A stretch of 64,000 bases of DNA from a virus, in the IMG/VR virus record IMGVR_UViG_3300037258_000514, positions 1-64,000 of that record; one strand, written 5' to 3'. The notes beneath the pieces are model-generated. The model was given only the letters and a program-made list of their open reading frames with translations, did no database searches and was not told the DNA's origin. Shown here one piece after another: positions 40,303 through 41,530 of this stretch. The position numbers and the translations under genes were made by a program. Each line of letters begins with the position of its first letter. Position 1 is the first letter of the stretch.

Positions 40303-40740
40303 ATGCTAACAAACGTAGCAGCAGAGCGGCAAAAGAAGACACGATCCGACAGATTAGCTCGTGTAAAAGATCTTCTTCTAACGGGAGCTTCTAACGCTGT
40401 TATTTCAGAAGAACTACATGCAACTGAAAGAACAGTTAAAGCTTACATGCACTCTTTATTTACAATATACAATATCACAGGTAAATGCAAAAGAGTAAAG
40501 TTAGCCGTAAGATTAATTGACGATGTAGAAAAAGAACAGACAAATTTAAATATGACAAAGCTAGAGAAACTAATAATAAATCTTGTTGTAGAAGGAAAAA
40601 TTAATCGACAGATTAGCGAAGAACTCCATTTATCAGAAAATATGGTAAAAAATTATCTCCGCACTATATATGATAAAACAGGAATGGGTTGCAGAACAGA
40701 GTTAGCACTCTGGGCAAAATCAAAAAGTTTCGTTGCTTAG
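40303..40740 (+). CDS. Tandem LuxR-type HTH regulator
   Basis: G.SN..IS.EL...E.TVK.Y...LF and G..N.QIS.EL.LSE.MVKNYL..IY.K.G...R.EL. Confidence 0.85.
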   Translation: MLTNVAAERQKKTRSDRLARVKDLLLTGASNAVISEELHATERTVKAYMHSLFTIYNITGKCKRVKLAVRLIDDVEKEQTNLNMTKLEKLIINLVVEGKINRQISEELHLSENMVKNYLRTIYDKTGMGCRTELALWAKSKSFVA

Positions 40741-40756: not shown

Positions 40757-40802
40757 GGGCTACAAACTGCTCCTGGAAGGGTTTGTAGCCCATTTTTATT
40801 TT
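40757..40802 (+). terminator. Rho-independent terminator
   Basis: GGGCTACAAAC...GTTTGTAGCCC 11-bp stem then ATTTTTATTTT. Confidence 0.75.
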
Positions 40803-40812
40803 AAAGAAAAGC

Positions 40813-40842
40813 TTGACATTGGACCCTCAATTTTTATATTAT
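40813..40842 (+). promoter_or_regulatory. Sigma70-like promoter
   Basis: TTGACA (40813) with TATATT (16-bp spacer) or TATTAT (18-bp spacer). Confidence 0.7.
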
Positions 40843-40848
40843 TACGCT

Positions 40849-40857
40849 ATGACATAG
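40849..40857 (+). other. Two-codon minigene ATG-ACA-TAG in frame with the Pth ORF
   Basis: ATG ACA TAG ATG at 40849-40860, at the predicted transcription start. Confidence 0.6.
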
Positions 40858-41328
40858 ATGAATCAGAACGCCCCGAATCCTGCCGATAAATACGTGTATC
40901 TCTTCGTCCGCCAAGATCTACCAATTCAACACCAAATTGTTCAATCCAATCACGCCACTCATATGATGGCTTCGATTCGCCCGGAAGAGTGCGTGCCCAA
41001 TATCGTACTTATTGGTGTGCCCGACTTAAACGCTCTTCTTCGTGTGGCGCAGAAGCTTAGAGCTAATCAAATTCCTCACTACGAGTGGGTCGAACCAGAT
41101 TTTGATTTAGGTTTTACTTCAATTGCTACTGCTCCGATTACTGGAGAGAAGCGTCAAGTTTTGAAGAACTATAGACTTTATTCCCCTGGAACCGTTGCGG
41201 TAAACGGCGTCGCTTGTATAGACCAGCCAATCCGCGCAGCTTGTCTCTTAACTGAGGACAGGGGAGCCAGTGCCCGAGTAGCTCAACAGCAAGAGCAGCC
41301 CGGTCTAAACGGGATGGCTGAAGGTTAA
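40858..41328 (+). CDS. Peptidyl-tRNA hydrolase (Pth2-like phage family); C-terminal tail overlaps tRNA-like genes
   Basis: YLFVRQDL...QIVQSNHA, IVLIGV, W.EPD...GFTSIATAP, LKNYRL. Confidence 0.75.
   Translation: MNQNAPNPADKYVYLFVRQDLPIQHQIVQSNHATHMMASIRPEECVPNIVLIGVPDLNALLRVAQKLRANQIPHYEWVEPDFDLGFTSIATAPITGEKRQVLKNYRLYSPGTVAVNGVACIDQPIRAACLLTEDRGASARVAQQQEQPGLNGMAEG
41182..41269 (+). ncRNA. Degenerate tRNA-like element inside the Pth ORF
   Basis: Perfect 7-bp TCCCCTG/CAGGGGA + G + CCA; D-like hairpin CCGTT-GCGGTA-AACGG; weak anticodon and T arms. Confidence 0.45.
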
Positions 41329-41347
41329 AGTCCTTCCTTGGGCACCA
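41272..41347 (+). tRNA. tRNA with CUA anticodon (amber suppressor-like)
   Basis: 76 nt; GCCCGAG/CTTGGGC, GCTC/GAGC, CCCG/CGGG, loop GT-CTA-AA, GAAGG-TTAAAGT-CCTTC, ACCA end. Confidence 0.75.
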
Positions 41348-41350
41348 TAT

Positions 41351-41400
41351 AGGGCGGGCTAGCGCGCTAGCTAGGGGCTTCAGTGCCTCCCGCCCTACCA
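41351..41400 (+). ncRNA. 50-nt mini-tRNA-like RNA
   Basis: AGGGCGG/CCGCCCT + ACCA; hairpin GCTAG-CGCG-CTAGC; T-like arm GGGGC-TTCAGT-GCCTC. Confidence 0.55.
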
Positions 41401-41405
41401 GATAT

Positions 41406-41486
41406 GCCGCTGTAGCTCAGATGGGCTGTATCCAGAGCAGCTTCCTTTTAGGGAGCAGGTCGGTGGTTCGATTCCATCCAGCGGCT
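41406..41486 (+). tRNA. tRNA-Lys(UUU)-like with enlarged D-loop, no encoded CCA
   Basis: GCCGCTG/CAGCGGC, GCTC/GAGC, GCTTC-CTTTTAG-GGAGC, GGTGG-TTCGATT-CCATC. Confidence 0.75.
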
Positions 41487-41502
41487 CTCTTTAAAATCGT
41501 GC

Positions 41503-41530
41503 GTCGGTTCGAACCCGACATGGCGCTCCA
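41503..41530 (+). other. Orphan tRNA 3' half (T arm + 3' acceptor strand + CCA)
   Basis: GTCGG-TTCGAAC-CCGAC-ATGGCGC-T-CCA with no adjacent GCGCCAT 5' strand. Confidence 0.65.

What the first reader, a model, noticed from the sequence alone, without database searches (positions are those of the whole stretch)
40813..41347. Candidate amber-gated translation circuit: leaderless ATG-ACA-TAG minigene, Pth2-like hydrolase, and an amber tRNA inside the same ORF
Seen: a terminator insulates a TTGACA..TATTAT promoter whose expected start (about 7 nt after the -10) is the A of ATG at 40849. The transcript would begin AUG ACA UAG AUG, in frame with the Pth2-like ORF. There is no Shine-Dalgarno before ATG 40858, and a CUA-anticodon tRNA lies within the 3' end of the same ORF. 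Known: two-codon minigenes (lambda bar type) cause peptidyl-tRNA drop-off that Pth must clear, and RF2 is autoregulated through an internal stop codon. Inference: Pth synthesis depends on UAG readthrough or reinitiation, making the locus a self-contained sensor of RF1 activity, suppressor charging or peptidyl-tRNA load. It could counter host translation shut-off defences. I do not know this arrangement as a described system.
Basis: partly seen in the sequence, partly recalled or inferred. Interest (0 to 1): 0.92.

Follow-up and report, generated by a model that had tools for sequence, protein, structure and literature searches.

The report
Stop-codon-gated phage Pth2-like gene
A soil phage with the normal genetic code has a small tRNA-hydrolase-like gene whose third codon is the stop codon UAG, followed directly by the phage's own UAG-reading tRNA; dozens of diverged phages, some lab-grown, keep this layout, so the enzyme is probably made only when that tRNA overrides the stop.

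Summary
ATG-ACA-TAG-ATG lies at 40849-40860, in frame with a 156-codon ORF. A CUA tRNA (41272-41347) straddles the ORF's stop. A 12-bp terminator and the best sigma-70-like promoter in the 176-kb genome sit directly upstream.

The "minigene" is better read as codons 1-3 of the gene. Of about 30 non-identical homologous loci from soil and peat phages and seven cultured jumbo phages, about 27 have start + 1-9 codons + TAG in frame. Most have no start codon after the stop.

At least 22 TAG-gated loci carry a CUA tRNA, usually 0-500 nt downstream on the same strand. The one TGA-gated locus carries a UCA tRNA. TAA never occurs at the gate. Synonymous sites are saturated and dN/dS is about 0.1.

The protein has the Pth2 fold. 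The genome is not recoded: TAG ends 22% of its genes, and no second gated gene was found.

Best reading: enzyme synthesis is coupled to suppressor-tRNA activity. The purpose is inferred only. Nothing here is experimental.

I found no paper describing this. Earlier agents of this scan reported the same module on many other genomes. New here: the conserved leaderless-type promoter, the ORF-into-tRNA overlap, and the tRNA's odd elbow and 4-bp anticodon stem.

The parts
40757..40802 (+). Intrinsic terminator ending the upstream LuxR/GerE-type regulator gene: 12-bp stem plus U-rich tail. It insulates the module.
   Evidence: strand folding (-21.5 kcal/mol; stem 40757-40791); scan; sequence
40813..40842 (+). 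Sigma-70-like promoter: -35 TTGACA (40813-40818); -10 TATATT (40835-40840, 16-nt spacer) or TATTAT (40837-40842, 18-nt spacer). Expected start is at or up to 3 nt before the A of ATG 40849, giving a leaderless or near-leaderless mRNA.
   Evidence: 11/12 for both options; best such site in the 176-kb genome; only 4/304 genes have a match of 9/12 or better at 5-10 nt from the start; same arrangement without a Shine-Dalgarno in about half of the gated homologues
40849..40857 (+). Gate: start codon ATG, codon 2 ACA (Thr), codon 3 TAG, followed by a purine. The true 5' end of the coding sequence.
   Evidence: conserved in frame in about 27 of about 30 non-identical homologous loci; most have no start codon after the stop
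40858..41328 (+). Pth2-fold protein ORF (156 codons as read under table 11). The structured, conserved core is residues 11-110 (about 40888-41187). Residues 111-156 are a disordered, unconserved tail that runs into the tRNA. The ATG at 40858 has no Shine-Dalgarno.
   Evidence: Pfam PTH2 15.2 bits, below the cut-off of 23; pLDDT above 90 for the core; Foldseek: Pth2/Bit1 structures, prob 1.0, TM 0.66-0.71; dN/dS 0.08-0.18
41272..41347 (+). tRNA with anticodon CUA (amber suppressor) and encoded CCA. It overlaps the last 57 nt of the ORF. Atypical features: G27·A43 mismatch giving a 4-bp anticodon stem, T loop TTAAAGT, and no GG in the D loop.
   Evidence: (54.6 bits)
41351..41395 (+). Conserved spacer hairpin between the two tRNAs: a GGGCGGG/CCCGCCC outer stem around a palindromic core. 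The palindrome differs but is kept in L014. Role unknown, possibly processing.
   Evidence: alignment A2; sequence
41406..41487 (+). Second tRNA with anticodon loop CUUUUAG (UUU, Lys-type), an 11-nt insertion in the D loop and no encoded CCA. ARAGORN miscalls it Trp.
   Evidence: (53.2 bits, alignment shown)
41498..41530 (+). 3' remnant (T arm, acceptor 3' strand, CCA) of a second CUA tRNA that is intact in relatives L002 and L014.
   Evidence: alignment A2

Best explanation
The module is one transcription unit: terminator, strong promoter, near-leaderless mRNA, Pth2-like gene, tRNA(CUA), a Lys-type tRNA, and a tRNA remnant.

Translation starts at ATG 40849 and meets UAG at codon 3. Without a suppressor, release factor 1 terminates there, or the dipeptidyl-tRNA drops off, and no enzyme is made. 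When the co-transcribed phage tRNA(CUA) is processed, charged and able to compete with RF1, it inserts an amino acid at the unconserved, disordered position 3. The full Pth2-fold protein is then made. Enzyme output therefore follows suppressor activity.

Shown by comparison:
- the conserved early stop;
- the missing alternative start in most homologues;
- the linked tRNA whose anticodon matches the stop;
- purifying selection on the gene;
- the Pth2 fold.

Inferred:
- Placing the stop at codons 3-10 wastes nothing when the gate is closed.
- It also puts the stop where termination is least efficient, so a weak suppressor suffices. That would spare the 22% of phage genes that end in TAG.

Most likely purpose (about 35%): feed-forward supply of peptidyl-tRNA hydrolase activity to clear peptidyl-tRNAs and stalled products created by stop read-through.

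Alternative purposes:
- negative feedback, with the enzyme acting on the suppressor's own acylated form (about 20%);
- a timer for late expression (about 20%).
For: Sequence and structure in the window.

Conservation of start + 1-9 codons + TAG, in frame:
- IMG/VR loci L001-L007, L009, L012;
- metagenome and MAG loci L014-L040;
- L034;
- blind picks from the 1.84-billion-protein library: L054, L055 and L057, 3 of 4 gated;
- cultured phages Arash, CBB and XacN1, and RsoM2USA, ME3, fHe-Yen9-04 and CM1.

No ATG, GTG or TTG follows the stop before the conserved core in most loci.

Linked CUA tRNAs:
- on the same strand, from overlapping the ORF end to about 500 nt downstream in most loci, and up to about 2.2 kb away in a few such as L006 and L009;
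- in L001;
- in Arash, where the record annotates it as tRNA-Phe;
- in ME3, annotated with anticodon CTA;
- XacN1 has two CUA tRNAs whose targets its authors could not find (PMC5852040).

The TGA-gated locus L007 carries a UCA tRNA. TAA is never the gate, although it ends 48% of this genome's genes.

dN/dS is 0.08-0.18 with pS 0.7-0.9.

Pth2 fold.

Standard code, and no other gated gene.

Many database proteins of the family begin inside the conserved core. This is what gene callers would produce when blocked by the early stop.
Against: - Nothing is experimental.
- In this window and in L001, an ATG directly follows the TAG. Suppressor-independent initiation or reinitiation is therefore not excluded for this particular genome.
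- The tRNA is atypical (G27·A43, T loop TTAAAGT, no GG in the D loop), so its function is unproven.
- 68 of 306 phage ORFs end in TAG. They show no enrichment of back-up stops and no avoidance of a purine at +4, so strong suppression should be costly.
- Some family members are not gated: L008, L010, L013, L039, L056 and RaK2.
- The TGA/UCA covariation rests on one independent locus in my own sample.
- The protein lacks the Lys-rich loop of canonical Pth2 and scores below Pfam's cut-off, so its substrate may not be peptidyl-tRNA.
Confidence: 0.78

Rival explanations
1. Termination-reinitiation without the tRNA. ATG-NNN-TAG is a two-codon loading ORF on a leaderless mRNA. After termination the 70S ribosome restarts at the adjacent codon (ATG here; ATC, ATT, GTG or GTT elsewhere). 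The neighbouring CUA tRNA is there only because the family sits among tRNA genes.
For: The codon after the stop is ATG, GTG, ATT, ATC or GTT in most soil-clade loci. In this window it is a true ATG. Members of the family also sit next to non-suppressor tRNAs, for example L008 and RaK2.
Against: Any stop would serve reinitiation. Yet TAA, the commonest stop here (148/306), is never used. TAG goes with CUA tRNAs in at least 22 loci, and TGA with a UCA tRNA in L007. Cultured-phage versions have AAC, AAT or ACC after the stop. Leaders of 8-9 codons (L006, L031, L034) are not minimal loading ORFs.
Confidence: 0.1
2. Bar-type minigene. The two-codon ORF is an end in itself. It generates fMet-Thr-tRNA drop-off that loads the host's Pth, and the downstream Pth2-like gene is translated separately to relieve that load.
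For: A strong promoter drives AUG-ACA-UAG. When the gate is closed, the transcript is in effect a two-codon minigene. Lambda bar minigenes are known to need Pth (established knowledge, not tested here).
Against: The mini-ORF is always in frame with a downstream ORF that usually has no start codon or Shine-Dalgarno of its own. Codon 2 varies: Thr, Pro, His, Leu, Lys. Leader length varies from 1 to 9 codons. The stop type matches the linked suppressor anticodon.
Confidence: 0.06
3. Genome-wide reassignment of TAG (code 15). The TAG at codon 3 would be just one of many sense TAGs.
For: A phage-encoded CUA tRNA is the hallmark of TAG-recoded phages (bioRxiv 10.1101/2021.08.26.457843).
Against: Under table 11 the ORFs cover 91% of the genome. 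TAG ends 68 of 306 ORFs. TAG-joined ORF pairs are not clearly in excess. No other early-TAG gene lacks a start, and the one candidate has its own Shine-Dalgarno and ATG.
Confidence: 0.02
4. Decaying pseudogene or chance juxtaposition.
For: The locus does contain decayed tRNA pieces: the remnant at 41498-41530 and the odd second tRNA.
Against: dN/dS is 0.08-0.18 with saturated synonymous sites. The only defect is the same early stop in dozens of lineages. The core model is confident.
Confidence: 0.02

Closest known systems
Stop-codon recoding in phages with phage-encoded suppressor tRNAs (TAG read as an amino acid, 'code 15'; Borges et al., bioRxiv 10.1101/2021.08.26.457843; crAss-like and Lak phages)
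   Same: A phage carries its own stop-reading tRNA, and in-frame stops make expression of certain genes depend on it. That work also proposes a regulatory gating role.
   Different: In those phages, dozens to hundreds of genes, mainly late and lytic, contain the stop, and coding density collapses under table 11. Here the genome uses the standard code, with TAG ending 22% of genes. A single small gene is gated, always within its first 3-10 codons, and it is physically linked to the tRNA.
prfB (RF2) autoregulation through an early in-frame UGA
   Same: An early in-frame stop in a translation-factor gene makes its synthesis report on how efficiently that stop is recognised.
   Different: prfB needs a +1 frameshift, and its product is the factor that reads the stop, giving direct feedback. 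Here the frame is unchanged, bypass needs a dedicated tRNA, and no link between the Pth2-like product and stop recognition has been shown.
Lambda bar minigenes (AUG-AUA-stop) and minigene-induced peptidyl-tRNA drop-off
   Same: A two-sense-codon ORF ends in a stop and is strongly transcribed. The functional theme is peptidyl-tRNA hydrolase.
   Different: bar minigenes stand alone. Here the three codons are the in-frame beginning of a 150-codon gene that mostly lacks any other start.
Archaeal/eukaryotic peptidyl-tRNA hydrolase Pth2 (PF01981; PDB 1q7s, 1wn2, 3erj, 2zv3, 1xty)
   Same: Same alpha/beta fold (TM 0.66-0.71). Shared R-x-D...Q-x-x-H-A N-terminal motif and an invariant Asp in the E-P-D...G-x-T segment.
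   Different: About 15% identity, and below Pfam's cut-off. The Lys-rich loop of canonical Pth2 is two residues shorter and has His or Gln instead. Activity and substrate are untested.

Membership tests
Pth2 peptidyl-tRNA hydrolase (Pfam PF01981) | Sequence match above the curated Pfam cut-off | tested here: not met
   15.2 bits against a cut-off of 23, E 0.026; 13.7 bits in the genome scan; profile against PDB sequences E 0.095
Pth2 peptidyl-tRNA hydrolase (Pfam PF01981) | Pth2 alpha/beta fold | tested here: met
   AlphaFold core pLDDT above 90. Foldseek top hits are all Pth2/Bit1 structures: prob 1.0, TM (target) 0.66-0.71, E 6e-5 to 8e-4
Pth2 peptidyl-tRNA hydrolase (Pfam PF01981) | Catalytic residues (Lys in the G-K-G-K loop and Asp in the D-A-G-x-T segment of archaeal Pth2; recalled from the literature, not re-read here) | tested here: inconclusive
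   Asp81 is invariant; Gln29 and His32 are nearly invariant. The HMM alignment to a solved Pth2 shows a 2-residue gap where the Lys-rich loop lies, and the family has His or Gln there
Pth2 peptidyl-tRNA hydrolase (Pfam PF01981) | Hydrolysis of peptidyl-tRNA or N-acyl-aminoacyl-tRNA | not testable with these tools
   Needs an enzyme assay or complementation of an E. coli pth(ts) strain
Stop-codon-recoded phage (code 15) | Phage-encoded suppressor tRNA with anticodon CUA | tested here: met
Stop-codon-recoded phage (code 15) | Many genes with in-frame TAG; poor coding density under table 11; TAG rare as a terminator | tested here: not met
   91% coverage under table 11; TAG ends 68 of 306 ORFs; one gated gene only
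Stop-codon-recoded phage (code 15) | Accessory release-factor gene (RF2) favouring TAG read-through | tested here: not met
   Only a 58-codon GGQ-domain fragment was found, 31.9 bits against a cut-off of 35, in the tRNA array
Lambda bar-type minigene | Stand-alone two-codon ORF, not part of a longer gene | tested here: not met
   Always in frame with the downstream ORF, which mostly lacks its own start
Lambda bar-type minigene | Toxicity when Pth is limiting | not testable with these tools
   Needs expression in pth-defective cells
prfB-type autoregulatory in-frame stop | The gene product itself controls recognition of the in-frame stop | not testable with these tools
   No evidence that the Pth2-like protein affects RF1 or the suppressor; needs experiment
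prfB-type autoregulatory in-frame stop | Bypass by +1 frameshift | tested here: not met
   The ORF continues in the same frame as the start codon in all loci

The most novel reading that the evidence does not exclude
The Pth2-like enzyme and the suppressor tRNA form an obligate, self-regulating pair. The enzyme acts on the suppressor's own acylated or peptidyl form, or on its by-products. In this clade, ribosomes that pass the gate translate into the tRNA sequence itself and so interfere with its folding and RNase P processing. Conversely, a closed gate exposes the mRNA to polarity. Together these would give a homeostatic or switch-like control of stop read-through in standard-code phages. That would explain the 'orphan' suppressor tRNAs of many jumbo phages.
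Probability: 0.2. Interest if true: 0.92.

Novelty: new variant of a known kind. Interest (0 to 1): 0.8.

Why it matters
Many large phages that use the standard code carry suppressor tRNAs with no known target. The XacN1 authors said so explicitly (PMC5852040). This module supplies a conserved target that covaries with the tRNA's anticodon.

It would be a natural, compact, tRNA-gated translational switch. It ties stop-codon read-through to peptidyl-tRNA or ribosome-rescue chemistry.

It also shows that public annotations systematically truncate or omit this gene. One cultured phage record annotates its CUA tRNA as tRNA-Phe.

The idea can be tested directly in cultured systems: Salmonella phage Arash, Acinetobacter phage ME3, Pectobacterium phage CBB and Xanthomonas phage XacN1.

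Tried and rejected
- **Genome-wide TAG recoding: rejected.** ORF statistics under alternative codes, stop usage and gap analysis all argue against it.
- **Other gated genes in the 176-kb genome: none found.** I scanned for ATG + 1-11 codons + TAG followed by a long open frame, and for short-uORF-stop-long-ORF cases for all three stops. TAG gave 6 cases, against 8 for TGA and 4 for TAA. The best candidate, on the minus strand at 138785, has its own Shine-Dalgarno and ATG.
- **Adaptation of ordinary TAG stops to suppression: not seen.** There is no excess of back-up stops (Mann-Whitney p = 0.30) and no avoidance of a purine at +4.
- **Amino-acid identity of the tRNA(CUA): unresolved.** Its nearest in-genome relative is tRNA-Gln(UUG) at only 70%.
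- **DNA similarity to GenBank phages: none**.
- **More TGA-gated relatives of L007: none found.** A viral-contig scan returned only L007's own contig. tblastn found no Atu_ph07 member.
- **HDV-like or theta ribozyme or another Rfam family next to the tRNA: none** at E up to 1.
- **Literature: no description found.** Five full-text searches and four papers read turned up nothing on an early-stop Pth2 gene linked to a suppressor tRNA. The library lacks most subscription journals.

Full report
**What the window is.** The 64-kb window is the first part of a single 175,952-bp virus contig with 40.6% GC. Plus-strand genes fill 1-41 kb. A minus-strand block that begins with a DnaB-like helicase gene starts at 41.5 kb. 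The genome has 32 tRNA genes. Thirty lie in an array at 81-99 kb. Two lie at 41.3-41.5 kb, at the junction of the two blocks.

**The observation.**
- The LuxR/GerE-type regulator gene (40303-40740) is followed by a 12-bp hairpin at 40757-40791 with a U-rich tail.
- TTGACA lies at 40813. It is paired with TATATT at a 16-nt spacer or TATTAT at an 18-nt spacer, 11 of 12 matches either way.
- TATTAT ends 7 nt before the A of ATG 40849.
- The sequence reads ATG ACA TAG ATG, and the frame then runs open to TAA at 41326-41328.
- ARAGORN and Rfam both find a tRNA with anticodon CUA at 41272-41347, at 54.6 bits. The ORF's stop codon lies in its T loop.
- A second tRNA lies at 41406-41487 (53.2 bits). 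Its anticodon loop is CUUUUAG (UUU, Lys-type) and it has an 11-nt insertion in the D loop. ARAGORN's 'Trp' call is wrong.

**The promoter is unusual for this genome.** Only 4 of 304 ORFs have a sigma-70 match of 9/12 or better ending 5-10 nt before their start codon. This one is the best, and only five loci (six spacer variants) combine TTGACA with a -10 hexamer matching at least 5 of 6.

**The protein.**
- Pfam gives only a sub-threshold PTH2 match (15.2 bits, cut-off 23).
- The AlphaFold model built on 25 homologues is confident for residues 11-110 and disordered for 111-156.
- Its top Foldseek hits in the PDB are all Pth2 enzymes: human Bit1 (1q7s) and archaeal 1wn2, 3erj, 2zv3 and 1xty, at probability 1.0 and TM 0.66-0.71.
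- Asp81 is invariant in the family. Gln29 and His32 are nearly invariant.
- The Lys-rich loop of canonical Pth2 is two residues shorter and carries His or Gln.
- So this is a Pth2-fold protein of a distinct, mostly phage-borne family.
- A profile search of 1.84 billion representatives finds 2,646 clusters at E up to 0.001 and 1,310 at E up to 1e-10. Many of those predicted proteins begin inside the conserved first strand or later. That is what gene callers would produce if the true start were blocked.

I fetched:
- 13 IMG/VR loci;
- 26 metagenome loci;
- 2 MAG loci;
- 4 blind picks from the representative search;
- 9 regions of cultured phages.

After removing near-identical copies, about 27 of about 30 loci have a start codon, 1-9 sense codons and then a stop, in frame with and directly upstream of the conserved core.
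- In the soil and peat clade the motif is ATG-ACA/ACG-TAG. Variants are ATG-CCT-TAG, ATG-CAT-TAG, GTG-ACC-TAG and TTG-ACA-TAG.
- One subgroup has an 8-9-codon leader (M-R-K/N...G-x-L-TAG).
- In most loci the codon after the stop is ATC, ATT or GTT, and no ATG, GTG or TTG occurs before the core. The upstream ATG is then the only possible start.
- Cultured phages show the same pattern behind a Shine-Dalgarno:
  - Salmonella phage Arash: M-L-TAG;
  - Ralstonia RsoM2USA: M-L-TAG;
  - Acinetobacter ME3: M-T-TAG;
  - Pectobacterium CBB: M-A-Q-TAG;
  - Yersinia fHe-Yen9-04: M-S-H-TAG;
  - Xanthomonas XacN1 and Stenotrophomonas CM1: M-K-TAG, at the head of an N-terminally extended form.
- Their public annotations truncate, split or omit the gene.

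**The linked tRNA.**
- A CUA tRNA lies on the same strand, from overlapping the ORF end to about 500 nt downstream, in most loci. In a few it lies up to about 2.2 kb away, as in L006 and L009. Six loci have two.
- L001, the closest large relative, has one that ARAGORN missed because of a 30-nt insertion in the variable region.
- In Arash, ARAGORN calls the tRNA annotated as 'tRNA-Phe', about 1 kb downstream, as CUA.
- ME3's CUA tRNA is annotated, 420 nt upstream.
- XacN1 has two, for which its authors found no target.
- That makes at least 22 TAG-gated loci with a CUA tRNA and none with a mismatched suppressor.
- The one locus gated by TGA (L007, ATG-CAT-TGA) carries a UCA tRNA just downstream and a tmRNA just upstream.
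- TAA ends 48% of this genome's ORFs but is never the gate.
- The base after the gate stop is always a purine. Classic E. coli work found that context to favour amber suppression (my recollection, not tested here).

**The gene is under selection.** Against 14 relatives, the proportion of synonymous differences is 0.68-0.93, which is saturated. The non-synonymous proportion is 0.22-0.36. Where dS can be estimated, dN/dS is 0.08-0.18. A 9-nt motif surviving saturated synonymous divergence is not drift.

**The genome is not recoded.**
- Table-11 ORFs cover 91% of it.
- TAG ends 68 of 306 ORFs.
- Reading TAG as sense brings no special gain.
- No other gene has an early TAG without its own start.
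- Ordinary TAG-ending genes show no excess of back-up stops and no avoidance of a purine at +4. Suppression is therefore probably weak, brief or tolerated.

**What is specific to this clade.**
1. A sigma-70-like promoter whose -10 ends 6-9 nt before the start codon, with no Shine-Dalgarno, occurs in about half of the gated loci: the window, L002-L005, L007, L019, L020/22, L023, L025, L026, L040 and L055. The genomic background is 1.3%. The mRNA is therefore leaderless or nearly so. In the window, that makes ATG 40849, not the Shine-Dalgarno-less ATG 40858, the expected initiation site.
2. In at least ten loci the ORF ends inside or beyond the first tRNA. The tails are unconserved and disordered, and several homologue tails are plainly translated tRNA sequence. 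Gene and tRNA must be co-transcribed. RNase P cleavage would remove the stop codon from the mRNA. Whether this couples translation to tRNA maturation is speculation.
3. The window's tRNA(CUA) has a G27·A43 mismatch, a T loop of TTAAAGT and no GG in the D loop. Across the set, suppressors have 4-bp anticodon stems in 14 of 28 cases against 11 of 48 for other tRNAs. They have non-canonical T loops in 9 of 26 cases against 5 of 50 (Fisher p = 0.013).
4. Alignment with L014 and L002 shows the ancestral layout: gene, CUA tRNA, hairpin, odd tRNA, second CUA tRNA. The window keeps only the 3' remnant of the last one, at 41498-41530.

**Mechanism.** The best-supported reading is that the full-length Pth2-fold protein is made only when UAG at codon 3 is decoded by the co-transcribed phage suppressor tRNA, in competition with RF1.

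Position 3 lies in an unconserved, low-confidence N-terminal segment, so the inserted amino acid probably does not matter and the stop is purely regulatory.

Why the enzyme should track suppression is inferred. Read-through of ordinary stops sends ribosomes into 3' regions and to mRNA ends. That creates stalled complexes and peptidyl-tRNA, which a hydrolase would clear. The tmRNA beside the opal-gated gene in L007 and a GGQ-domain fragment in this phage's tRNA array fit that theme, but they prove nothing.

Negative feedback on the suppressor, a late-expression timer, and defence against tRNA-acetylating toxins (Pth detoxifies such tRNAs, PMC9241777, seen) remain open.

**Rivals.**
- Reinitiation after a two-codon loading ORF cannot be excluded for this window alone, because an ATG follows the TAG. 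It does not explain the exclusive use of TAG or TGA, or the match to the anticodon.
- A stand-alone bar-type minigene is contradicted by the in-frame, start-less downstream ORF and by the variable leader.
- Recoding and pseudogene readings fail the tests above.

**Novelty.** Five full-text searches and four papers read found suppressor tRNAs and 'peptidyl-tRNA hydrolases' listed side by side in jumbo-phage genome papers. None linked them or noted the early stop.

Earlier agents of this scan reported the same module on many other genomes. One word search returned 200 notes in at least 125 genomes, including opal-gated cases with matched anticodons. Those are unchecked AI notes, but they agree with what I tested independently here.

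I class this as a new variant of the known kind 'phage suppressor tRNA makes genes with in-frame stops translatable'.

Noticed in passing
window 41406-41487 (+): tRNA with anticodon UUU (Lys-type), an 11-nt insertion in the D loop and no encoded CCA. ARAGORN calls it Trp(CCA). The same GGGCUGUAUC insertion is present in a degenerate copy in L014. A Lys(UUU) tRNA also sits next to the CUA tRNA in L002, L006, L034 and Salmonella phage Arash.
   Followed up: partly
window 41498-41530 (+): 3' half of a tRNA (T arm, acceptor strand, CCA). It aligns with the 3' half of the second CUA tRNA of L002 and L014, so this phage has lost its second suppressor.
   Followed up: partly
window 41351-41395 (+): Conserved hairpin between the two tRNAs. 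The outer stem is GGGCGGG/CCCGCCC, around a 12-nt palindrome (CTAGCGCGCTAG). L014 has a different palindrome (CCAGCTAGCTGG) at the same place. No Rfam match; role unknown.
   Followed up: no
loci L002-L040 and window 41272-41347: The stop-reading tRNAs of these modules are often odd. A 4-bp anticodon stem occurs in 14 of 28, against 11 of 48 other tRNAs. A non-canonical T loop occurs in 9 of 26 against 5 of 50, usually together with a D loop lacking GG. One (L005) has an 8-nt anticodon loop.
   Followed up: partly
L001:3860-3963 (+): CUA tRNA with a 30-nt insertion at the variable-loop position (Rfam 59 bits), missed by ARAGORN. A degenerate tRNA-like piece (26 bits) overlaps the end of the Pth2-like ORF at L001:3325-3391.
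   Followed up: partly
G000:C1:92496-92672 (-), outside the window, in the tRNA array (L062:1504-1680): A 58-codon ORF with a GGQ motif matching the RF-1/ArfB peptidyl-tRNA hydrolase domain (31.9 bits, cut-off 35). It ends early at TAA. It may be a fragment or a mini GGQ protein.
   Followed up: partly
window 40303-40740 (+): A 145-residue protein with two helix-turn-helix units (GerE/LuxR type, E 3e-18) lies directly upstream of the module and ends at the insulating terminator. It might regulate the strong promoter at 40813.
   Followed up: no
L058 (Salmonella phage Arash, OQ632216.1 49176-49247): Public records mis-annotate the module. ARAGORN calls Arash's annotated 'tRNA-Phe' as CUA. The Pth2-like gene is split (Arash), truncated (CBB, XacN1) or not annotated at all (RsoM2USA, Serratia BF, Erwinia pEa_SNUABM phages, fHe-Yen9-04).
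   Followed up: partly
L006, L031, L034: A subgroup has a longer leader before the TAG that is similar at the amino-acid level: M-R-K-A-I-V-G-D-L, M-R-K-Q-I-S-G-L and M-R-N-A-N-S-G-L. This hints at a functional leader peptide.
   Followed up: no
L007:2152-2541 (+): A phage tmRNA gene lies about 450 nt upstream of the TGA-gated Pth2-like gene and its UCA tRNA.
   Followed up: no
G000:C1:142440-142477 (+), outside the window: A second consensus-like promoter (TTGACA, 17 nt, TACAAT) ends 6 nt before an ATG. This is another candidate leaderless gene in the phage.
   Followed up: no
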